A DNA stretch of 63,387 bases, the filler included, from Rhabdomonas costata (lineage: Eukaryota), in NCBI GenBank assembly GCA_019059605.1. It is 32 parts of 32 records of this genome, joined end to end, with 100 filler letters (N's around TTAATTAATTAA, not from the genome) between each part and the next. Parts side by side here need not be neighbours in the genome. Positions count along the whole stretch, not along the records: positions 19,845 to 21,729 come from JAHMHO010007785.1; 31 more parts are not named here. The stretch is one strand, 5' to 3'. Each line of letters starts with the position of its first letter. The stretch's first letter is position 1. This document shows positions 4,446 through 63,256 of this stretch, one piece after another. The notes below the pieces were generated by a model. That model did not search any database and was not told the origin of the DNA. It saw nothing but the letters and a program-made list of their open reading frames with translations. The position numbers and the translations under genes are program-made.

Positions 4446-4791
4446 TATTTAGTGAAAAAGTGTTCGCGTACTGGGATTGCCATGAGAAAAGAAAACGGTT
4501 TGTTGCCCAGGGCCATATTAAACTGAAAAGCTCAAACAAAAACAAGCTACTTTGTTCGCCACAACAATGTGTAGAGCCCGCACACACGACACAGAGGGAA
4601 ATAGGGTGCGCGCAATAGAACCGACAGTCTCCGTGAAAACAAGCGACTTGGTTTCATTTGTTGAAGAAGGAAACCACTTCGCCGCCACCACTGCTGCCGT
4701 AGCCGTCAGCTCTTCGGAGCTTTGTTTTTTCCAATTATTACCCAGACATGAGGCCCTTCCACGTTCTGGCTGTGTTGGTTTTACCCATCAG

Positions 4792-5552
4792 CCTGCCGGA
4801 GAAGGAGAGCGTGAACCTGAGCCTGTGCCACTCTTTGCTGGAGTCCTACGGGAAGGCCCAGTGCCTCTCCGAGGTCACCGCGACGCTGCAGCGGATGCAC
4901 CGCCACCGGGTGTCCCCCACCCTCACCACGATGAACCTCGTCGTGCGCAGCTGCTGCCGCGCCGGAAACATTGAGCAGGCCGAAGCCATCGTGAGGGTGT
5001 GTGTGTGTGTGTGTCTCGGGTTGGCTGTTTTTTTCCGGGGAGAGGGGATGGGTTTTTGAGGGCCTGGATTTTGTTGTCAGTGATTGTTTTCGGTGAAATT
5101 TTTGCACAACCATCTCAGCGTGTCGTGTTTTCGCAGGTGCGATGTAACAGGAATAGGCCAGGAATAGGACAATCAGGACTGGGGACAGGAGTGGGTATTG
5201 GGAACGTCCAAACTGAAGCACTCGGTGTGACTTGCGGTCAGTCATTCCCCGCCTGCTAACGTCATCCGTCATTGGCCCATCCAGTGGTAACGGCATCGAA
5301 TGCTCTCCGCGACATGTTGCCTTGGGGCCTCTATCTTCAAGTTCGGTGTTGTTAGTGTTGTGTATTAGCTGTGCGCAAACCGCTTGTCACTCTCTCTTGT
5401 TCTCTTCCCGCGCTTTCCCCTTTCCCAAAAGGAGCTGCCGTCGTACGGCCTGCACCCCAACGCCTTCACGTTCACCGTGTTGATCCAGGCCTGCGGGCAG
5501 GCCCGCGACTTGACGCGGGTGGAGGGCCTGCTTCGCGATATGCACACGGCAG
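4792..5552 (+). CDS. Pentatricopeptide-repeat (PPR) protein, internal exons 4792-4996 and 5432-5552
   Basis: Spliced reading CHSLLESYGKAQCLSEVTATLQRMHRHRVSPTLTTMNLVVRSCCRAGNIEQAEAIVR|ELPSYGLHPNAFTFTVLIQACGQARDLTRVEGLLRDMHTAG gives three consecutive 35-aa PPR motifs; in-frame GT-AG intron. Confidence 0.9.
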
Positions 5553-18608: not shown

Positions 18609-20614
18609 ATAGGATAGTTTATCTTCGGAGCGCAATTCAACTAACGACACAGAGAAAAAGCGGTGGAAAAGGCAAAATACGGCAGGCACAAGGGCACAAG
18701 AACAATAGCTAATCCACGCACAAGGGAAGACGACATACTGCGTGCCCAGACGCAGCGTTGCTGGCATTGGGGTTCTGAATTCGAAAGAGTCAGCAGAAGC
18801 GGAAAATTGCGAGTTCGGACACGGCCTGGGCTTTGGAAGGGGACCACGATAACACAATGATTCCTGATCAACAACACATTATGGATTATGTGGGGTTTGC
18901 CCCGCATTGGGATCGCCGTCACGGAGTCGTCACCTTAGTAGAGTTACCCCCGGAAGCCCTCAAGGATTGGAGCCTTCTGAGATTAAGGCCCACCCTCCCG
19001 AAATTCTGATGACTCTCTCGTGTATGCCTCGGTACCTTCCTTTACAGCCCCTGGAATCCCCTCTTATAGTGTCTCTTGCTCTCACTTCCTGCCGGTACGC
19101 GTTCACCCTCTCACCTTTCCTCTTAATTTTGTGGACGCCGTTCCGGACTTCCCCTCTTTCGGATTCGCACCAGATTCTCCTGCGCTCATCCAATCTCACT
19201 GCACTCACACGTACCTTCAAAGTGTGCAACGTCGTTGCTTCTGGCACAGGGCCGATTCCCTTCTCAAACTTCTTTCTTGAATCGCCGTGTCCCGTATCGT
19301 TACGTAAGAACAAAACGTATGTGTGGCTGCAATGTTTTGCCAAGCGGGAAGCAGAAGGAAGTTTCCGAAGGAAACTTGCTTTAACCTGTATGTGGAAAAA
19401 CATCAATCGGCTGCAGTTAGGCAACCAGGCATTCGCACTCTCAGCCGAAGAAACCTCCCAACGTCTATCCCAACCTACCCAAATTTAGGGCAGTGCACAG
19501 ATTCTCGCTTGCTCGAGGGCAATACAGTATTGGGAACCAACATTCCTTTTAATACTCTTCCCGATCGAGAGGTAGGTGAGTGTGCAGGCGTTGCCACACG
19601 AATCAAATTTCGTTCTGCCACGGCATAGCACGGCTAAGACAGAACTTCACGGATCACAGCCACAGCCGCTGTTACTTGGCAATACGCAGCCAATTGTGTA
19701 AGCTGCTGCAAGCACGTAATCCATCCCGCAATGCCACCAAAAGGNNNNNNNNNNNNNNNNNNNNNNNNNNNNNNNNNNNNNNNNNNNNTTAATTAATTAA
19801 NNNNNNNNNNNNNNNNNNNNNNNNNNNNNNNNNNNNNNNNNNNNGTGGTGGGTGTGTTTGGGTTGTGGGGGCTCACGGTTACCATTGGTTGCCAGTGGAA
19901 AATTTTCCATCAATCTATTTTTCTAGAGAACATAATTTAAAAAAAAGTGGGCAAATGCTCCCCACGTCACGTTTCCAACCCAACCACCCACTCCGGCCGC
20001 GATACCACTGGTGACGTTCTCTTTCCCTCTCCACGCCCCAAACGTCAATTGCACCAAATCATTTTCTGCCCCCCTGGAACGTTTGTCTTCGACGAAAATG
20101 TCCTCCTGAATACACTGTGATGACGCAGCTGTTTTCCTGTGCTCAAATTGCTCCACGCATACCCAGAGGTGGCATAAGTAAGGGTGATGATCATGCTTTG
20201 TTGTAGATTTGCAGCCATGCTTGTGAGGACCCAGCAGGTTCACTATTTTGGATTGCTTTGGTGCTTAGAAACGTTTCCTCCCATCCGATGTGTGTCTCCT
20301 GCGGTGCGTGGAAAAGGCGAAGGAGTATCGCATAAAACACGGGCAGTAAGTCGCGTGCCCCAATCTTTCGAATCTCGGCTATAGTCCACGACAAGCAGCA
20401 TTTGCGGGCACACACATACACACAATCTCACTGCAACCTCAAAGGCGAACATCTAAACGCCACTTTTTTATGGAGTGGGGTCGGTGATGCAATAAAAACA
20501 ATTTCGCTCCAGATGCATACCTTTTATGCATATCTGGAACTATGTGTCTCAGTCACAGCATGGTCTCATTGTCTCTGAAGAGGATGGTTGTGACCTCCGT
20601 CCCATCCGCCACAG

Positions 20615-20809
20615 GTGCGGTACAAGTACAGACTGCACATGCCCCCGTCGATCTACAACTTCAAGGACGTGCATTGCAAGAATCCCGCGTGCATCTCCAA
20701 CCCCTCCCACTTCGAGCACGCTCTACCGTACTTCCGCCAGATCGACGGCCAAGTCTTCACGTGCAGATACTGCGACACCCACCACACTTACAAAGAAGTA
20801 TGGCATTGA
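20615..20809 (+). CDS. pyrI: Terminal exon encoding the PyrI-type Zn-binding domain of aspartate carbamoyltransferase regulatory chain (PyrBI-fusion-like)
   Basis: VRYKYRLHMPPSIYNFKDVHCKNPACISNP...FTCRYCDTHHTYKEVWH*: C-x-N-x-x-C-I-S...C-x-Y-C signature of the PyrI C-terminal domain; preceded by a CAG acceptor at 20614. Confidence 0.85.
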   Translation: MRYKYRLHMPPSIYNFKDVHCKNPACISNPSHFEHALPYFRQIDGQVFTCRYCDTHHTYKEVWH

Positions 20810-21952
20810 AAGTGCAGCACGCGGAGAGGAGTTGCTCATCCTCCCATCAAAACACATAAGCCCACACAACACGGACGCGTACTCACCTCTCCACCCATTC
20901 CACTCATGCCCAAGTGTCTGGGCTCACATGCTCTCCAAAACTGTTGGGAAGTGCGGTGGAGTGTGGGCTGGTGTCGAGCGACTTTTATTTTTTATTTTAT
21001 GACGCTATCTGCTTCTTAGCGGAATGGCCTTTGGTTTGAGTTCACTTTTCCACTTCAAGACTTCAAGACTTCGGGTTGGCCGGTTTCCTCTCTTGAATCA
21101 TTTTCCGTCCTTAAGCTGGATACCTCGCGATGCATTCGCCCTTCCCGGGGGTTGAATTTCTATCTTAACAGAGTGGTGGCCGATTCACAGGCGTCCTGTG
21201 TGGGATTGTGGTTGACGACGTGAGAATGCCACGACCTTTCATACTGCACGGGTGCACATTTTCACCGCCAACTCGATTCAAAAGATGGGGGGGGGCATTG
21301 CTGGCGATCCTGCGCTGAAATGGGAATGCGAGTGACTGTCTACTGCCTCCCTCCCGCATATTCTGCCTTGTTTTTTCCGCTGGCGCCCACCCGCCGTATT
21401 GCGCCCGGTTTCCGGTCGGGCGCCGGGGCGCTTGCCGTTCTCGCTTTTGTTCTTGTGGAATGTCTTTCCCACTGTTTTAGTGTTTTGTTTTGGGTTTTCC
21501 TGCGGCCCAAGCCTTGGCTAGATCAAGCGTGCTTTTACCTCAAGCGTCCTTTTGTGCCGACATCTCTGCTTAATGTTACCGGGCCTGTGTCCTCTGGGGA
21601 GCGCCCATCCCCTTACCCCAAATCTTCTTAATTCCGGCCTCGTTGTTCAACAAACGTCCTACCCGACACCCAGAAAGAATGGCCACCTTTATGCGTATGG
21701 AAATCAAATTGTCAAAGCCAAACGTCCATNNNNNNNNNNNNNNNNNNNNNNNNNNNNNNNNNNNNNNNNNNNNTTAATTAATTAANNNNNNNNNNNNNNN
21801 NNNNNNNNNNNNNNNNNNNNNNNNNNNNNGGGGTGTGTTTGGGGTTGTGTTGCTTTCGATTTGTTTCTTGGCTGAAGTTGGATGCAAAGGACAATGGGCT
21901 CAGTCATTCTTCCGCTTCGTTGGTGAGGGCGCCTTTTTTTCTTCCGAAAAGC

Positions 21953-22599: not shown

Positions 22600-24188
22600 T
22601 CATAGTGACTTCTTCTCCTTCGAAATCTTGGCCCCACACCCCTCACCTTCTCCTATACTTGGGCATAATTCTGTTGCCATCAGCACGGCGGCTTGGGAAA
22701 GGGTTACTTTTTTCCTTTCTAACGCTAGGCCCTCTCTAGCATTCCAATCGCTTCGCTCATGGTAGATCCCTATTACTTCCTGGAGATGTGATGAACAGAT
22801 ATGGAAGGTCAGACGTTGTGCCGTGCCGTCACATGAAGCACTCCCTTTGATGACGAGATGCAATGCGTTCTGCCGGATTCGTTTTAGTGGCACAGCTTCT
22901 GGGGAAAGGGTTACGGAATGACGTCCGTTAGGACCAGATATTTGATATCACAGTGTGTTACAGGGCGAAGCATCTACCCCCAGAAAAAGATTTGCTGCTG
23001 AAGGTATGCCGATTTAACGCGAATTCTGCTGTCCAGTCAAAATCAGACCCCGTACCTCCACATCACCGGAGCTCCAGGATTCGCAGTCTTGTGTATTGAC
23101 GCGTGCAGGACTGCCGTGGCCGGGGTAGGGGTCGCGGTGCCCCGCCCAAGTCACGGTGATGGGCGCAATATGAGTCGTTTCCGCCCTCCTTATGTCCTCA
23201 AGATTGAGGACACGGGAATAGAAGTTGTGTGTGGTTTACTGTTGTTGTTGCTGATGTATGTTGTACTGTTGCTTTTTTTGTACCTTTTTTCCATGATGAA
23301 AGTTGTCTTCTGTCAAAGAGATGCTTGGCGGGGAAGCTCCTACACCTAACCCCTTCCTTTTTAAAGAGTGAGAGGGTGAGAAGTTGTATAAGTTTCATAC
23401 TCCCATCCCTCCAACGCAAAGCTCAGTGCGACATTTGGAGTGGTTTAGCTCAAGACAGTGACCACTTGTGTTTGCAATGGTTTGCAAGAACCCGCTGTTG
23501 TCTTGACTGTCGTGCCCTGTGTTTTTTGCGATTTCCGTGGAACGCCCTTTTTTTCCTCCTCACTTCACTCCTTCCATTTCCGCAAAATGATCATCCCGCG
23601 GAGAGCCTGCCGGTTGCACGGTCTCTTCCGCATGCCGCGCACCGCGCCGTGCCTCTCACCCTCCCCTGTGTCCTCCTCGTCGTCCTCCTCCCTGCTCTGC
23701 CTCCCCACAACCCNNNNNNNNNNNNNNNNNNNNNNNNNNNNNNNNNNNNNNNNNNNNTTAATTAATTAANNNNNNNNNNNNNNNNNNNNNNNNNNNNNNN
23801 NNNNNNNNNNNNNTTTCTTGAGCTCACCGCTTCTTTTTTTTTGGAAGTGTAATTGCATGTCGGATCCACGATGGATCCGGTCAAGCCTCACCCTCAATCC
23901 GTTAACAGAGATATATGGCACAGGTTCACTTAACGGGCCCAAGGGAGGAAACATTCTTCAGGGGGTTAGGACGACTTGCACGTGCGGGGAGGGTCTGGGG
24001 GCGGAGCTCCCCCAGCTACGTTCCTAGGGTTAGGGAGTGATGCTTTTCCGTTGGACGCTGATCCGTTCATTTCGTTGCTACCCTAACCTCCATCCGAGAC
24101 GAATATATATACCCTTAACCACAATTGTGCAGGTCAGCACAGGTGAGGCCACTCACTCCGAGTCGCTTCCCCCCGTCCCTTTCCAAAG

Positions 24189-24359
24189 GTTCGACCACCA
24201 CTGCGGGGTGCTGGGTAACTGCATTGGCCGCCGCAACCATCGGTTCTTTCTCCTTCTGCTTCTCACCGGGGCCGTGGAGCACACCCTACTGGTGTCCTCC
24301 GCGGTGTTTCTGGTGGCGCAGATCTTCCACGAGCAAGGCCGCGCGGCGTGGGACACGTG
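24189..24359 (+). CDS. DHHC palmitoyltransferase, exon with the catalytic motif
   Basis: RFDHHCGVLGNCIGRRNHRFFLLLL followed by a TM helix; AAG acceptor at 24188. Confidence 0.95.
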
Positions 24360-24496
24360 GTATTATTACTTCCCGTCTGTGCTCTGCTCAAGTGGCTTCA
24401 GAGTTTTAGCCAATGCCCGTCCATCACTTCGGATGCTGTTAAGTCCTTCACTCATTGGTTGTTACGCTGTCCTTATTATTCCTGCTGATCAGATAT

Positions 24497-27925: not shown

Positions 27926-29622
27926 GGCTTGACCGCGAAGGCCATCGCCGATCTTGACGCGCTGCTTGTGCAGCAGCCCGACTCCCCTGATCTCCTGCTG
28001 CGCCGCTGCATGGCCCATCAGCTCGTGGGTAACACTGAGGCCGCTCTGAGGTTTTCCCGTGCCTAGTCCGAAACACTGCAATTTGGACCTTGTAAGGAAA
28101 GCGAAATGTGGAGATGGGTCATGAGCTTACATAATAATACGGTTCTGTTTCCAAAGCCCCTGCGTTATTTCGGCCTTAGTTCATCTCGAACAGAGGTATA
28201 AAAAAACACTACGTTTTATCGCACAAATGATGAGAGGGGGCCGGCCACTAGGTGGCATACAAATTGGACAATGAGATTCTTCATAGCAATCTAAATTATT
28301 CTTGCTTATCGTTGTTCTTTGCTGGTGCAAAAAAAATTCTCGCGGCATACGGCTAGACATTGGCAGGATGGCACATGATCACCGCTGTTTTCTCGCTGCA
28401 TCGTTATCTTATCTTTTTTCCTCGTTGACGTGTTGTGTCATTGCTCGAAAATCTTATTGTTATGGGTCGTCTTTTTTTCAATTGCACAGGGACGCCACGG
28501 CGGCGGTGGAGCGGCGGCCCGACTCCCCACGGCCCCACCACACTCGGGGCCTCGCGCTTGTGCTCGCAGAGCGCATCCCAGAGGCCATCCAGGAGTTCAC
28601 CCGTGCTCTGGAGCTGGACCCCACGTGCGAGGAGGCCCTTGTGAATCGCGCGGTATGTGTCTCTGTGTTTGGGTTGCTGCGCATCGATGGCCCCACTCCC
28701 CTGCCGAATGTACATCAGATGTATGAATGGAATGGTTTGTTTCCGCTTCTCCGCTTTTCACTTTTTCTGACCTTTAGTACCAATGTCATGTTCGAGCCGA
28801 TCTGGGCATACACCTCACACTTCAGCGCACACCGCTCCTGGCAGGCGGCCTACCGTGCCCGCAACGAGATCGATCACTGCCTGGAGGACTGTGAGAGCGT
28901 TCTTAAGCTGAACCCCAACAGCGACGAGGCCTTCTACCATCAAGGGCTCGCCCACAAGACGGTTGGGGACTACCCGAGTGCCATTGAAAACTTCTCAAAG
29001 GCAGTCGTGCCTCTCTTTTTCTCCGGGGACAATGTTTCGATCCCTCTTCGATTTTCGAGGGGCAGCGGTTTATATTTTGCACGGGGTGGTCAGAGTTGGA
29101 GCATCCACATTGCAAAAGGGGGAACTTGTTTTTTGGTACACTGCAGATAGCATTTTTAGTACGACACGGTTCTCATCCAAAAGGAAGGTAGAACCTTCCT
29201 GGAATAGTTTGTGCCTCCCTCTCCTGGAGATGTTTTTTTTCACATTTCATCTTTTCATGTTTTCCATGCCTATGACATTCTACTTTGTCACCCTTCTTTT
29301 GCTTTCTGTCAGGGGAACTGTCTGAATCTGCATTTTGGCATTTTGGCACTTTGGCATTGAGACGTAATTGTTACATGTAACACGGCAATGAGATGAGCCT
29401 CTGCAGATCTGTACCATCGAATGCGATAGCGATTGGTTTGTTTTGCCTCCCGGCCGTGTTCTCGGCTGTTGCAGGCCATCGAGATCAACGACAAGGTGGA
29501 CTCGCGGTATTACCACAGAGCTCTGGCCTACTTTCAGCTCGGGGATTACGAAAGCAGCGTGGTCGACTTCTCGTCGTGCATTGCTCGGAACCCCAACAAC
29601 GAGATGGCGTACCACAACCGCG
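27926..29622 (+). CDS. TPR-repeat protein, exons 27926-28050, 28490-28652, 28845-29000, 29475-about 29622
   Basis: Consecutive TPR motifs (HHTRGLALVLAERIPEAIQEFTRALELDP; AFYHQGLAHKTVGDYPSAIENFSK|AIEIND; YYHRALAYFQLGDYESSVVDFSSCIARNP); all exons splice in frame. Confidence 0.93.
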
Positions 29623-33894: not shown

Positions 33895-35010
33895 CGCAGC
33901 AATCATATCCCCCAGTACTGCGCGGCGCAGCGAGCCACCCGCGTCGACCACCAGCACCTTGCCTGCACCAGGCTGGTCCAGAGTCTGCCGTGATGAGACA
34001 AACGCAGTACAGATGAGGGGGGTGCACATACATTCGCAAGTCACGCTAACTCTGCTTCAATCCAATTGTTTCAAGCTGCATTGTGATGACGAGCACCAAC
34101 ACCCGGTGCAGCAAGACATATGCGTGCACACACTGCATCCGCAAGGCATAAGTTCGTTTGGCGTTCTCTTCCAGACCTACCGATTCTCCAGCCTTCGTGG
34201 CCACTGCTTCGGGTGGGGGGGGATGACCACCCCTTCCTCAACTGCAGGTCCTTAAGAAACCTCACTGATGCACAAGAACCGCGGATTGATGGGCGTCCAA
34301 TCTCTGCGCCATGTATGCCCAAATGCGAATCCATACCCGAATGCATACCCGAATATTAACCTCAAGCCACTCCCAATTCCACTCCAGACACAGAGCCCGC
34401 ACGTGCTCTCCAGGTCAAAGTGAGATAGCAATCTACCTTGAAAGGGAACCGACCCAACGTACATTTGCGTACAGTTGTGTTCATTTAGGAGGGAGGGTAA
34501 CCGAAATGTACTGAATTGCTCGAGCAGGCCTCTTTTCATAGGAATAAGTTTCTCTGTGCGATTCTGGGCTTTGGACTTGGGCGCGAAAATTCAGTTGAAC
34601 ACAACGTTAGGTTTACGCAGTTAAATACATACGTACAAAATACAGCCTCTGGCGCAGCCTATGCCGTATAAGAAAAAGCAACACTACAAAACTGCAGAAC
34701 GACCTGCGTGTGAAATTTGGAGCAAGAGTGCCTGGTTGGGTTGGATGGGCCGGAGTCCCCTTCCGTACACCGGAACCAGGGATGAGCTCTCCCACACGCA
34801 CGCAAACACATACGCACACACACACGCAACGGTGCAGACCGACTTCACAAAGGAGTTGTCCTCGAAGCACTTCACGGTGACGGCCTGGCCCCAGAAGTGG
34901 GCCCGCCCGCCATAGCTCCGGAAGATCGGCTCCATGTACCGCAGCTTGTCCCCGAACTTGTCGCACAGGTCAGCCGTGGCCAAGCACTGCGGGGCCGCGG
35001 CAGAGGCCAT
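33895..35010 (-). CDS. rraA: RraA-family protein (regulator of RNase E / HMG aldolase-like), exons 35010-34840 and 33984-33895
   Basis: [10 protein letters not shown]...[58 protein letters not shown] are hallmark RraA motifs; GT-AG intron in frame. Confidence 0.95.
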
Positions 35011-37185
35011 TTCCTGCTGTGGGGCTTATTTTGCCTTCTTTCAGAGGAGAGAAAGGGAAAAGGGTGAGGGCAGGATCCTTCCAAAGGGTGAAGAAGGTAC
35101 CCGACAGGGCACGGTGCTTAAAAAGCAAGAAAGCACCCAGCTCCATCTCAAAAACATACTTGCCATTCCTCACTTGCCCTGCTCCCCACCTAACCACAGT
35201 ACACGATCACTTGAGCAAAAGAGTCTTGGGCAGCCCAAGCAGGGGCACCACACACGAGCATTTTGGTGTGCGTTCCACAACTCGGCGCGTGGAGCAATTT
35301 TCCGGAGATGAGGCCAACCCACGAAACCGGTGCTACTCGATGGCCCACCAATCACAACTCGCCAGAAGGTACAACGCAGCAAATCACGACAGTGCCACAC
35401 CAGAAGAACGACTGCAATGAACGAACAGAAAAATTCGCACGTATTAACACAGGAAGACGAAGAACAACAGGCAGGGCCCCAATATACAGTTCCAAATCGC
35501 CTCCAGCGCCTCCACAAGAGGAGGGACGAATGGAAGCGTGGGCAGGAAAATCTCCCAATGAAAAACCAAACAGGGTAAAGCACGCCAAAGGAAGATCTCA
35601 GCCCCCCCCCCACCNNNNNNNNNNNNNNNNNNNNNNNNNNNNNNNNNNNNNNNNNNNNTTAATTAATTAANNNNNNNNNNNNNNNNNNNNNNNNNNNNNN
35701 NNNNNNNNNNNNNNGTTTTTTTGTTTGCGGGTTTTGCCTCCCTCTCCCCCCCTCCCCACGTGGTCGAGACGGACCTGTACGCGGTTTCATTGCAATAGGT
35801 GTATATGTTGGGAAAGATGTTTCTCAAGCCCTTATCTGGAGTGCATCCCCCTCTGGGAGCTCTGGCTTCACGGTGCCTGTTGCGAAGGCGCGGAGACCGC
35901 CCCACCGCCGCCGAGGCAGTGGCGGAAGTCCTGAAGCTGATCCAAGCCCTCTGAGCATGAGGGGAGTTGTGTCACGCCGCTTGCTGTTGACGCTATTTCG
36001 ATGAAGGCTGCCCCCCGCACCGTTTCCACCGGGCGAGCGCATCTCAGGCTGCTGAACGCAGTGGCATGTGATGGCGGGAGGGGAACCGGATGTTTCCTCG
36101 TTTGATAAAAATGCAGAACGTGATCCCCAGCACTGACCTGCGCAAGTAAGGTTGCAGGCAGGAGTGCAAAACAAATGGGATAGTATGGTGATGGCGATGG
36201 TGAGTGGGTGTAATGAAAGCTTTCCGCTCTGCCTGGAAGTGGTCACGTTATGCTGTGTTGCTTTTTTGGACGCGCCGGGAGCCCTGTTTAAATGAGAGGA
36301 GGTGATGCGCTGAGTGGAACTTCAGGATACCCTCGCTTCTGTCCCTTGATTGGAAAAATGGATACCCTGCTACGAACGATTGTTGAGCTTTTCGTTCCTC
36401 TGGAGAACATGAAAGGTTGCGCATGTTATCGGTGTGGTTGGTGGTGTTGGGATCAATCACGTTACTTATTAGGCTAGTACTTGGGTAGCTCTACCAGTCC
36501 TAGATGACGTTTCATCATTTGGGCAAATGTCTGATGGCCTACTCAGAAAATCAGTTTTTTCACACCACTACTCTTGCAATCACATCGGAAGGCTGTGGCG
36601 CGATTGCCCAAATTTGGTTTAATTCCATACCGTCCCGTATGTTTCAGCGCAGTTTCCAGCCCCTGCTTTATGCTATGGACGCTGTGAAAAACGTTTAGCT
36701 ACTCCCCACTGCAGCACTGGCTGACACCCGGACAGTAACCTGGAGCTTCTTGTGTGGTCTTCTCGTATTTTTATTTTCTGCCCATTTGTCAATAATAGTA
36801 CGCTGTTCAAACCGACTGTTTTTATGCATCGCCTGAAGCACAGAAATTTCAGAGCGAGTGAAGCGCTCGTAAATTCGTCCAATTTACACCATATTTCTGT
36901 GACCGTGCGTTCTGTGTTGTTCGGATGTGAGCAGTTTGTTTTTGATAGAAGGTCACGTTGTCTAATCGCTCTTCAAAACTGAAGCCTGACTTGCAAACAG
37001 TTTCATCACACTAACGCAGCACTCTGACGTGACGTACTGGTTTAGCAGGGGCTTTCTTGTTCTGTTTTTCTGGTGCCTCGTGTTGGTTTCTATTGCTTTT
37101 GCGCCAGGGAAAGGGCGAGGGCGTCTTTTCGGTTTCCTCCAAGGGAGTTTGGCGGTCGGGGGTTGAGCGCCAACGCACACGCGAA

Positions 37186-53838: not shown

Positions 53839-54838
53839 GTATGCCACTTGAAGGGGGATGGGATTGCTGCGAACCCGGTGAAGGCCGTGGAGTTCTTCCG
53901 GCAAGCTGCGGCGCAGGGCCACCGCAGCGGGCGGTTCAACCTCGCTGTGTGCCTGCTGACGGGCACCGGAGTGGAAAAGGACGAGACTCAGGCCGTGCAG
54001 CAGCTGATGGAGCTGGCTAACTCCGCCGGCCACTCCGGCGCCATGTTGATGCTCGGTATGTGTGGTGGCTCTTGTCCTTATGAGGTGGCTTTGTGAACGG
54101 CGACTGTGTGTGAGACTCCAGGGGGGTTGTATGGTTCAAGGCTGCGAGATAATGTTCTCCAGGCGCACGGCAATTGTCATGATTTAAAGCCAAAGCCAAA
54201 TGCTGCTTCTGTGTTCGTTTTAGCACGGACGACACGTGGTGCTCTAAGTATCCCAGTGTATCGCGCAAGCAGATGGAAGGTTTCGACACACGCGCATCCC
54301 CTTCTGTGCGCTGGTTCCTGTTCCCTTCTAGGCAATCCCCAAGTGCGCTGAAAACGAGAGCACTCATTGACACGCAAACAAGCATACCATTTCGGTATTT
54401 CTTCGAGCAATGGCACCACCTCCACCGCCCTCAGCAGGTTGTCTTGACCTAAGTGCGAGCTTCCTCTTGCCCCATCTTCCACACCACCATGTCTTCCCCT
54501 CTGCTTTCTACAACTCCGCTTCTTCCATTTTTGTTGTTCTCTGCAGTTTATATTTTCCCCAACCCCCGTTGCTTTTTTTTTGCGAGGTGGGGGTACATTC
54601 TCTTTCTAGGGAACTGCTACCGTGCCGGCCGGGGGGTTCCCCGGGACGAGGCCCAGGCCTTGCATTGGCTGCAGCGTGCCGCCTCCCAGGGCAACCTAGA
54701 TGCCCAGGCTCAGCTTGCCTCGGACCACGTGCAGCCCCCAGCGGGCTCCAGCCCCGCGAGCACAGCCTCCTCCTCCCCCTCCTCTTCCACCTCCAAGGCC
54801 TCCGCTCCCGCCGATCCGTCAGAGGAGGAGTCCGAGAA
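53839..54838 (+). CDS. Sel1-like repeat protein, exons 53839-54055 and 54610-about 54838
   Basis: GDGIAANPVKAVEFFRQAAAQGH; FNLAVCLLTGTGVEKD; LG|NCYRAGRGVPRDEAQALHWLQRAASQGNLDAQ. Confidence 0.93.
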
Positions 54839-55402
54839 GTGCGCCTGCTCGCCCACCCCCGACCGCCGCTTCTTTCCTTTTTTATGAGGAGGGGGGAGGA
54901 CACAGGGGTTTTTTTGCCAATCATTGCTCTTGCAGAGTCACCGCATTGCCGTTTTTTTGTCCGTGTGCAAGAAGAAGTCCCCTTACGTAGATGCACATAC
55001 GGCGGCCCAACTCCTGGCAATCCCAAACACCACCCAAACACCACCTTCAGACCGCCCCCCATCTCATGTGTTCCCTCTCATCTGAACACGGCCCCGCCGT
55101 GGTGCAGTGGTTAGTCCACTGAATCTATTCTCATCGCACTCGCACACGCGTCTCCCGCGAACGGCATCTTAAAACAGGTGAAACAGCAGGTTAGTCAGGA
55201 TCTGTTGGTAGCTCACCATGAGGAACTTTCTAAAATCCTGAAAAGAGGATTTTTACGATTGTGGCGTGACAAACCATTTTCAACAAAAAGCACAAGGCCC
55301 ACTAATTTAGGCATTACGTATGAGAAGAGGGCGTGTGAAAGAGAGCTTTGATACGGGAAGGAGAGGGAAGGAACCAGAACACAAGGGGGAATGAACGGAG
55401 GA

Positions 55403-61404: not shown

Positions 61405-61565
61405 NNNNNNNNNNNNNNNNNNNNNNNNNNNNNNNNNNNNNNNNNNNNTTAATTAATTAANNNNNNNNNNNNNNNNNNNNNNNNNNNNNNNNNNNNNNNN
61501 NNNNTTGTTTGTTGTTGGAATTTTGCATTTTCTTTGGCTACTGCTTGTTTCCTGTCTCTATGCAG

Positions 61566-63256
61566 ATTGTCACATCGTGGGATAAGACAGTGAAGGTATG
61601 GGAGATTCAAAAGTCCCAGCAAGGTCCAATTGTTGCCTGTAATGCGGTGAAGGGCCCAGAGCACTCCCACGACCTGCCCGTGCTCTGTTCCGCCGTGTCC
61701 CGGGACGCCCGAGTATTCTCTGGAGGCTGTGACAAAGTGGTGAAGTGCTGGGAGCTCGGCTCGCAGGGCAAGGCGCCGTATCCAGTTGCGGGGGTGTGTT
61801 TCTGCCCTATTGAAACTAACACTTAACGAAAAAAATCGAGGCAACTCCCAAGTCAATGAGCACCTTTTTTTTTTTTGAGATTGCTCCTTTGAGAGTACTT
61901 CTGAAAATCAGATTGCAACAATCCAGGCAAACTGAAGACTTTTTCATTCGCAATTGTTTCTCAGCATGATCAGCCAGTGAAGTGCGTCTCCTATGTTGAG
62001 GAGGTGTGCGTATGGTTGTTGATTTGGAATTCGTTACACCAATTTCTGACAAGGATGTTACGCGTTTTCTCGTGGTTGTTGTTCTGCGCAGGGATCCTTT
62101 CTGATCACTGCGGGGTGGGATTCAACGGTGAAGTTTTGGGACTTGCGGACGCCGCAGCCTGTTGGGCAGCTTTCCATTCCGGGTAGCGCCGTGGATATGG
62201 ATGTGACATTCCCCATGGCGACTTTCTTGGCTCCCCGGGAGATCTTGATCTATGACCTTCAGTCCAGAAGGGAAATCAAGGTTGCCCTTTGCTCGAGTCA
62301 CCCACTCGCATTGAGCATTTTCCCGTTATTTTCCGTTGCTTCGGATTCGGCCCTTCCCGGCAAGTTGTTGTTTTTGCTATTTTTTTTTGGCCGATGAGCC
62401 TTCGGCCTTTGGACTGCAGGCATGGGATTTCGCATGAGGCACTTTTCATTCAGAAAATGGAGCCCCACCACACGATGAAGGAGCAGCTGCGGTGCATCGG
62501 AAACTTCCCGGACGTAAAGGTTCTTTGCCGTCCTTTGTTTCTGCGCCCCCCCCCCCCAATCATGCCGCCCTCCATCCTTCCTCCGAGCTTTTGTGTCGTC
62601 CTATTCCAGTTTTTGTTCAGCACACCTCCCCCATTGTGTTGGGGCCTTGTGCGCTTTATGTAGCATTTCCCTCGTTCCTCTGTCGCGCTGGAGCCTAGTG
62701 GTGTTCGAGAGTGTTGCAGCGTTGGTTCTACTCGTTAAGATTCTGTTATTTGTCTCCTCCTTTTTCTCCTCCTTTTTCTGTGCTTCTGTGTCTTCCTGTT
62801 GACAAGCCTCTTGGCGCTGTGCTGCTGAATACCCTAGTACTCTGTCCTGTTAAGATAAAAATGTAGTCCTGGAGTGGGTGGGGTCTCCTCTCTGCCATGC
62901 AGAACAATCCGGGCTTCGCCGCTGGTTCCATCGAGGGTCGAGTGTGCATCATGTACATGAACGACACACCCCAGGTTCGCCCTCTACCCACCCCACATTT
63001 TCCCATCTCTTCTCTTCCACTCTCTTTTAAGGGTCTTGTGGGGGGGCTTTCTCACCTCTTGCCAGCAGTCCGAGTGCACCATCTTCCCTCTTGCGCTTCA
63101 TAGAACTCCAAAAACTTCAGCTTCAAGTGCCACCGCGAGAACAACGGAATCGATGTGTATGCCGTCCACGCCATTAGCTTTCATCCGACGTTTGGGACCT
63201 TCTCCACCGTCGGGGGCAACGGCAACCTTTCCTTCTGGGACAAAGACGCTAAACAG
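61566..63256 (+). CDS. RAE1: mRNA export factor Rae1/Gle2 (WD40), exons 61566-61793, 61965-62003, 62092-62280, 62454-about 62513, 62903-62974, 63104-63256
   Basis: [64 protein letters not shown]...[33 protein letters not shown] (WDKD favours Rae1 over Bub3). Confidence 0.95.

What the first reader, a model, noticed from the sequence alone, without database searches (positions are those of the whole stretch)
20615..20809. Prokaryote-type ATCase regulatory (PyrI) Zn domain in a spliced eukaryotic gene, resembling PyrBI fusions
Seen: four Zn-ligand cysteines in PyrI spacing, a stop codon, and a CAG acceptor directly upstream with no in-frame upstream domain, so it behaves as a terminal exon. Established: PyrI is a bacterial/archaeal subunit; typical eukaryotic ATCases (CAD/URA2, plant and trypanosomatid enzymes) lack it. 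Inference: the lead-in KYRLHMPP.IYNF and the ending KEVW look, from my recollection, like the fused PyrBI proteins of Thermotoga and spirochaetes. That suggests a horizontally acquired, intronised ATCase with prokaryote-style allosteric control in a protist.
Basis: partly seen in the sequence, partly recalled or inferred. Interest (0 to 1): 0.7.

Follow-up and report, generated by a model that had tools for sequence, protein, structure and literature searches.

The report
Bacterial-type fused ATCase in a protist
This is the last exon of an intron-split gene for a pyrimidine-synthesis enzyme built on the bacterial plan, with catalytic and regulatory parts in one chain; related genes in Euglena, diplonemids and dinoflagellates point to a third kind of eukaryotic enzyme that the reviews consulted do not list.

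Summary
Observation confirmed. Window 20615-20809 encodes a PyrI zinc domain (Pfam 39.8 bits, cut-off 23.4). It fits the C-terminus of the fused PyrBI family far better (78.6 bits) than free PyrI (25). It is a real terminal exon. Two metagenome contigs carry the same exon (81-83% protein identity, dN/dS 0.14-0.15), and DNA similarity runs only from the acceptor AG to the stop. A second contig of this genome holds two PyrBI catalytic-domain exons around an 857-nt GT-AG intron, one with a one-base slip. The two contigs could not be linked, and only 112 of about 530 residues were recovered. The gene is not peculiar to this organism: full-length PyrBI fusions occur in Euglena gracilis, diplonemids (NCBI already labels the Diplonema protein PyrBI) and dinoflagellates. 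They fall on one side of a branch against prokaryotic PyrBI (support 84-98), nearest free-living spirochaetes in two trees. The root and the donor are not settled. Nucleotide-site residues are invariant in euglenozoan copies and eroded in dinoflagellate-side copies. Allostery is inferred, not shown. No paper found discusses this eukaryotic type.

The parts
19845..21729 (.). The contig that holds the finding (G000:C7785); the flanking window segments are unrelated contigs
19845..20614 (+). 3' part of the last intron (donor lies off the contig); in-frame stop at 20591-20593; acceptor CAG at 20612-20614
   Evidence: no PyrBI homology upstream of the exon; 5 stops in 256 in-frame codons; DNA similarity to the related exon begins at the AG
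20615..20806 (+). Coding part of the terminal exon, phase 0: last strand of the allosteric domain plus the whole zinc domain of a PyrBI regulatory half (Euglena residues 464-527)
20624..20626 (+). Lys aligned to E. coli PyrI K94 (a nucleotide-site residue; role recalled), kept as in euglenids, diplonemids and prokaryotes
20675..20773 (+). Four zinc-ligand cysteines (codons at 20675, 20690, 20762, 20771)
   Evidence: invariant in 227 of 227 homologues aligned
20807..20809 (+). TGA stop, at the same place in the related exon of L020 and L021
20810..21729 (+). Presumed 3' UTR and downstream DNA; T-rich run at 20983; transcript end unknown
   Evidence: inference

Best explanation
The stretch is the last exon of a nuclear, intron-split gene for a fused aspartate carbamoyltransferase (PyrBI, about 530 aa) in a euglenid-like protist. 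Shown: the exon, its PyrBI-type zinc domain, purifying selection, and separate catalytic-domain exons in the same assembly. Inferred from orthologues: one chain with a catalytic half, a linker, an allosteric domain and a zinc domain, which makes carbamoyl-aspartate, the second step of UMP synthesis. Inferred from E. coli and Thermotoga class B enzymes: the four cysteines bind zinc and shape the domain that docks on the catalytic domain, so that nucleotides bound at the allosteric domain can shift the enzyme between low- and high-activity states. The gene most likely entered eukaryotes long ago from a spirochaete-like bacterium and then gained introns.
For: PRK13376 78.6 bits against 25 and 16.5 for free PyrI models. 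34 of 64 identities, no gaps, to the C-terminus of Euglena gracilis PyrBI. The same exon lies in metagenome contigs L020 and L021: 160-161 of 192 nt identical, against 20 of 100 upstream and 36-37 of 100 downstream; same acceptor position and stop; differences by codon position 9/4/18-19; dN/dS 0.14-0.15. G000:C33363 (L002) has two exons that meet in phase 0 across an 857-nt GT...CAG intron, at the motif MP|EEY also seen in Euglena; spliced in silico they score 65.1 bits on a PyrBI profile, against at most 0.8 for 500 shuffles. Exon GC3 is 0.81, near a spliced OTCase exon of this genome (0.88), in 49-52% GC flanks. The genome has paraflagellar-rod genes (9 matches) and an OMP decarboxylase in two pieces on one contig. 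A TIGR00670 search gave 4 matches, all read as OTCase pieces, none a plain PyrB. The careful tree puts the piece inside the eukaryote group (96/97), sister to euglenids (80/82). His before the first Cys with a 23-residue spacer occurs in 4 of 240 stored full-length proteins: 3 euglenid-like ones and one distant outlier. The model has pLDDT 82.6, and the first 21 listed Foldseek rows are all ATCase regulatory chains.
Against: The two contigs are not linked: no bridging contig and no transcript. Only 112 of about 530 residues were found; searches for the remaining exons were empty or gave chance hits. The second L002 exon has a one-base slip as assembled. The AU test does not reject placing the 112 columns with prokaryotes (p 0.167). 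The piece went with the dinoflagellate side in one quick tree and was unresolved among eukaryotes in another. No Foldseek hit reached E 0.001 (best 5.7e-3). With an outgroup the root fell among eukaryotes, on a flagged long branch, so the direction of transfer is not shown. The residue aligned to E. coli K60 is Ser in most PyrBI proteins, so the effector pattern may differ.
Confidence: 0.85

Rival explanations
1. The exon ends a stand-alone regulatory subunit (a split PyrBI or a free PyrI) or a zinc-domain-only peptide starting at the ATG at 20639, with the catalytic chain made separately.
For: The link between C7785 and C33363 is not shown. A gene caller made a 56-aa product from the matching ATG in the related contig (P0002).
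Against: Conservation starts 8 codons before that ATG, exactly at the AG. All named euglenid and diplonemid orthologues retrieved are fused. Free PyrI models score far lower.
Confidence: 0.06
2. The gene is a decaying copy or pseudogene in this organism.
For: One-base slip in the second L002 exon; most exons not found.
Against: Intact frame, four cysteines and dN/dS 0.14-0.15 against the related exon. The assembly has 104,289 contigs for 97 Mb, so gaps and base errors are expected. No other ATCase was found with TIGR00670, while OMP decarboxylase is present.
Confidence: 0.05
3. The contig comes from a contaminating or symbiotic spirochaete-like bacterium.
For: Highest raw identity over the 112 columns is to an unnamed prokaryote-side protein (58%). 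AU p 0.167.
Against: In-frame stop 7 codons upstream and no upstream PyrBI sequence on a contig with 770 nt to spare. Acceptor position shared with another organism. GT-AG intron in the catalytic part. The upstream DNA shares a 76% match with another G000 contig.
Confidence: 0.02
4. The zinc domain is kept only as a structural part of the fused enzyme and carries no nucleotide regulation. This is compatible with the gene identity above and rivals only the allosteric step.
For: In 66 dinoflagellate-side sequences the four Cys are invariant while D19, H20, K56, N84 and K94 vary, so the domain can persist without the site. The allosteric-domain exons of this genome were not found.
Against: Those five positions are invariant in 3 of 3 euglenid-like, 4 of 4 diplonemid-like and 154 of 154 prokaryote-side sequences, and the window exon keeps K94 and V91.
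Confidence: 0.25

Closest known systems
Fused PyrBI aspartate carbamoyltransferase (NCBIfam PRK13376/NF009916; Thermotoga maritima, spirochaetes)
   Same: Best-scoring family; the exon covers profile 461-524 of 525 and the L002 exon 195-221. Eukaryotic orthologues match end to end at 630-747 bits.
   Different: Nuclear and intron-split. The full-length eukaryotic proteins stay under the 800-bit cut-off, as do Spirochaeta thermophila (761) and another spirochaete-type protein (728). No fused chain among the best 60 of 79 PDB sequence matches.
Euglena gracilis EG_transcript_7470 and Diplonema papillatum KAJ9461491.1 ('Protein PyrBI')
   Same: Probable orthologues: 53% and 46% identity over the exon, same end position.
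   Different: Database entries only. The Diplonema label appears in one supplementary table row and not in the main text of PMC10161547.
[quoted passage not shown]
   Same: Four zinc cysteines, K94 and V91 align; same fold.
   Different: Separate chains; about 28% identity in the zinc domain; K60 is replaced, mostly by Ser, in PyrBI.
Known eukaryotic ATCases (CAD/URA2, plant trimer, Trypanosoma cruzi enzyme)
   Same: Same reaction and catalytic fold.
   Different: The reviews describe them without a regulatory chain. The T. cruzi chains are 327-334 aa and only about 26% identical to the Euglena protein.

Membership tests
PyrI zinc-binding domain (PF02748) | Score above the curated cut-off | tested here: met
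   39.8 bits against 23.4
PyrI zinc-binding domain (PF02748) | Four cysteines matching E. coli C109/114/138/141 | tested here: met
PyrI zinc-binding domain (PF02748) | PyrI zinc-domain fold | tested here: met
   Model pLDDT 82.6; first 21 listed rows are ATCase regulatory chains (TM about 0.6), the next at E 2.9; but best E is only 5.7e-3
PyrI zinc-binding domain (PF02748) | Binds zinc | not testable with these tools
   inferred from the ligands
Fused PyrBI ATCase (PRK13376) | Regulatory domain of the PyrBI type at the C-terminus | tested here: met
   78.6 bits over profile 461-524 of 525, against 25 for free PyrI
Fused PyrBI ATCase (PRK13376) | Catalytic and regulatory parts in one chain | tested here: inconclusive
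   PyrBI-type catalytic exons lie on another contig, not linked; orthologues are fused
Fused PyrBI ATCase (PRK13376) | Whole-protein score over 800 bits | tested here: inconclusive
   Only fragments here; Euglena scores 746.7 and S. thermophila 761.4, so the cut-off also excludes some bacterial fusions
Fused PyrBI ATCase (PRK13376) | Intact ATCase active site | tested here: inconclusive
   The exons with these residues were not found in G000; S52, T53, R54, T55, S80, K84, R105, H134, Q137, R167, R229 and Q231 are kept in Euglena and Diplonema (roles mostly recalled)
Fused PyrBI ATCase (PRK13376) | Allosteric response to nucleotides and higher oligomer | not testable with these tools
Stand-alone PyrI (PRK00893, TIGR00240) | About 150-aa free chain over the cut-off, with its own start | tested here: not met
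   25 of 171 and 16.5 of 148.6 bits; no start before the homology; PF01948 not found in G000
CAD/URA2 or plain trimeric eukaryotic ATCase | No PyrI-type regulatory domain | tested here: not met
   The exon is a PyrI domain

The most novel reading that the evidence does not exclude
Eukaryotes have a third, apparently undescribed ATCase type: a fused class B enzyme taken once from a free-living spirochaete, given introns, kept in euglenids and diplonemids with its bacterial nucleotide site intact, and shared with dinoflagellates by eukaryote-to-eukaryote transfer, where the nucleotide site decayed while the zinc domain stayed. Trypanosomatids, by contrast, have the short enzyme.
Probability: 0.4. 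Interest if true: 0.65.

Novelty: new variant of a known kind. Interest (0 to 1): 0.5.

Why it matters
Two reviews list eukaryotic ATCases as CAD/URA2 fusions or plant-type trimers and cite fused regulatory chains only through Thermotoga. A zinc-domain, class B enzyme in euglenids, diplonemids and dinoflagellates would add a third architecture in abundant plankton groups. It would also give a natural experiment in keeping or losing a textbook allosteric site after gene transfer, testable with the Euglena enzyme. The interest is limited because the protein family is known and the Diplonema protein already carries an automatic PyrBI label.

Tried and rejected
Treating window neighbours as context: rejected, they are unrelated contigs. 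Search for longer homologues with the 64 aa: no candidates. Searches of G000 for further exons: whole proteins gave only this exon, an OTCase exon (L009) and a chance hit (L008); parts of homologues, three degenerate patterns and PF01948 gave nothing, apart from L010, judged chance. DNA searches for bridging contigs found none. The 4 TIGR00670 matches were read as OTCase. The PD-1 hit at E 0.14, L022/L023 and P0029/P0063 are chance. Rooting with plain PyrB proteins was unreliable. AU tests were inconclusive: window piece with prokaryotes p 0.167, Euglenozoa as one clade p 0.262. Chen et al. 1998 was not held. Paper search was badly formed (a word stem under whole-word matching) and carries little weight.

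Full report
Setting. The window is 32 stretches of about 1.88 kb joined by N-linkers. The finding lies on 19845-21729, identical to G000:C7785, in an assembly of 97.2 Mb in 104,289 contigs. A Pfam scan of the 150 longest of 188 window ORFs of 100 aa or more gave 7 ORFs with hits: TPR, DHHC, Sel1, PPR, RraA-like and two WD40. G000 has 9 paraflagellar-rod matches, with none in 14 prokaryote controls, and GT-AG introns in an OTCase gene. This fits a euglenozoan with introns. An earlier AI note on another piece also called it euglenid-like (e1-7141149); I treat that as a lead only.

Observation. 20615-20809 gives 64 aa and a TGA. It scores 39.8 bits on PyrI_C (cut-off 23.4) and 78.6 bits on the fused family PRK13376 over profile 461-524 of 525, against 25 and 16.5 bits on free PyrI models. 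The four Cys align to E. coli C109/114/138/141, and V91 and K94 are kept. An in-frame stop lies at 20591-20593; the only AG between it and the homology is at 20613-20614, and the first ATG is at 20639. An AlphaFold2 model from 47 sequences has mean pLDDT 82.6. The first 21 listed Foldseek rows are all ATCase regulatory chains, although none reaches E 0.001 (best 5.7e-3; next family at E 2.9).

It is an exon under selection. The best of 68 hits in the representative library was an 80%-identical fragment, P0002. A metagenome scan with it gave 4 loci. Two of them, L020 and L021, are near-identical to each other and carry the whole exon at 81-83% protein identity; L022 and L023 are chance. DNA similarity to the window contig runs from the acceptor AG to the TGA only: 160-161 of 192 nt in the exon, 20 of 100 upstream, 36-37 of 100 downstream. 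The acceptor there is TAG, itself an in-frame stop. Differences fall 9/4/18-19 on codon positions 1/2/3 and dN/dS is 0.14-0.15. These are pairwise counts over 64 codons.

The catalytic half. A PRK13376 search of G000 gave 2 matches: this exon and C33363 (L002, E 0.15, profile 195-221). L002 holds a 21-codon exon, an 857-nt GT...CAG intron and a second exon that continues the alignment in phase 0, at the MP|EEY motif also present in Euglena. Spliced in silico it scores 65.1 bits on a PyrBI profile built without window rows; 254 of 500 shuffles were reported at all, the best at 0.8 bits. The second exon has a one-base slip as assembled, which may be an assembly error or real. All other exon searches failed and no contig bridges the two pieces. 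So 112 of about 530 residues are in hand, and the fusion in this organism is inferred. TIGR00670 found 4 matches, all read as OTCase; no plain PyrB was found with that query, which does not show absence. OMP decarboxylase is present in two pieces on one contig.

Relatives. Full-length fusions with named sources are Euglena gracilis EG_transcript_7470 (531 aa), Diplonema papillatum KAJ9461491.1 (named 'Protein PyrBI' by NCBI), D. japonicum, Namystynia, Artemidia, and the dinoflagellates Alexandrium monilatum, Gymnodinium smaydae, Yihiella, Dinoflagellata sp. MGD and Effrenium (a longer gene model); Pfiesteria and Durusdinium entries are shorter or partial. The window exon matches Euglena 464-527 at 34 of 64 identities without gaps. 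Nine eukaryote-side proteins score 630-747 bits on PRK13376, under the 800 cut-off, as do two spirochaete-type controls (728, 761). Catalytic residues are kept in Euglena and Diplonema (S80 and K84 from passages of PMC4581275, the other roles recalled). The Euglena model has pLDDT 92.1, with catalytic domain, linker and regulatory domains, and matches ATCase catalytic chains. No fused chain is among the best 60 of 79 PDB sequence matches. On the prokaryote side, the Atlas's two nearest clusters are mostly Spirochaetota and Thermotogota. In a sample drawn around spirochaete genome G002, 5 of 81 genomes had the fusion, and T. maritima was the only control over the cut-off.

Trees. Rows were representatives chosen from 240 stored full-length proteins at under 68% identity plus named ones; I dropped many dinoflagellate-side rows and, in some runs, long branches. 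The branch separating eukaryote-side from prokaryote-side rows had SH-aLRT 98, 97, 96/97 in the careful tree, 96, 84 without the window row and 96. In some searches the group lay next to Salinispira and Spirochaeta thermophila (86-87 and 95); its sister was unresolved. The window piece was sister to euglenids (82; 80/82), on the dinoflagellate side and unresolved. Forcing it among prokaryotes was not rejected (p 0.167). A euglenid link is also suggested by His before the first Cys with a 23-residue spacer, found in 4 of 240 proteins, 3 of them euglenid-like. With plain PyrB outgroups the root fell among eukaryotes on a flagged long branch. Bacterium-to-eukaryote direction therefore rests on the prokaryotic range of PyrI (established knowledge; 7 of 14 controls), not on a rooted tree. 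Many rows have no taxon name, so 'prokaryote-side' and 'dinoflagellate-side' are my labels from rank and tree position.

Mechanism. [quoted passage not shown] That the zinc domain docks on the catalytic chain, and that D19, H20, K56, K60, N84 and K94 line the nucleotide site, is recalled. In 227 aligned homologues the four Cys are invariant. D19, H20, K56, N84 and K94 are invariant in 3 euglenid-like, 4 diplonemid-like and 154 prokaryote-side proteins, but variable in 66 dinoflagellate-side proteins (D19 24 of 66, H20 13, K56 7, N84 12, K94 17); K60 is mostly Ser throughout (P0212, P0227, P0301 and two partial proteins left out). The window exon keeps K94. I therefore put the gene identity at about 0.85 and retained nucleotide regulation at about 0.65-0.7. 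The oligomer state is open.

Literature. Ten searches of the held library (listings seen) showed no paper on a eukaryotic PyrBI; several returned far more papers than were listed, and one search was badly formed. PMC7052976 (passages and supplement search) scores euglenozoan ATCase only as a separate gene. PMC10161547 has the label in one supplementary row and none of the search terms in its main text. PMC8611851 and PMC5052871 (passages) do not treat it. Chen et al. 1998 was seen only as a reference title. Subscription papers on euglenozoan pyrimidine genes were not searchable and may bear on novelty.

Verdict. A real, selected terminal exon of a PyrBI-type ATCase in a euglenid-like protist. 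The family is known and one eukaryotic member is already auto-labelled, but the eukaryote-wide group and its split in nucleotide-site conservation appear undescribed in what I could search. Interest 0.5.

Noticed in passing
whole window: Length-sorted contigs of about 1.88 kb joined by 100-nt linkers (N runs around a short palindromic spacer); many contig ends are GT-rich or AC-rich low-complexity tails.
   Followed up: yes
L002:925-1004 (G000:C33363): The second PyrBI catalytic exon has a one-base frame slip as assembled; error or real is open.
   Followed up: partly
L009, L011/L013, L012: At least two different intron-split ornithine carbamoyltransferase genes in G000.
   Followed up: partly
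proteins P0048, P0193-P0259: Dinoflagellate-side PyrBI proteins carry insertions in the zinc domain and have lost nucleotide-site conservation; P0059 and P0069 look like a second, more divergent copy.
   Followed up: partly
protein P0069/P0191: The Artemidia (diplonemid) protein groups with dinoflagellate-side sequences on a long branch, not with the other diplonemids: paralogue, second transfer, contamination or artefact.
   Followed up: no
protein P0061: A 636-aa PyrB-plus-PyrI-like fusion far from the PyrBI family, possibly an independent fusion.
   Followed up: no
L020:1-273 and 1883-2154; L021: The related exon is flanked by a long direct repeat (97% over 273 nt at the two ends of L020).
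   Followed up: no
window 19919-20001: Part of the upstream intron matches G000:C42713 at 76%, probably a dispersed repeat.
   Followed up: no
window 24034-24495, 28287-29147, 54453-54884, 4703-5056, 34687-35025, 61506-62394: Pieces of ordinary genes on other contigs: DHHC palmitoyltransferase, TPR, Sel1, PPR, RraA-like and WD40.
   Followed up: no
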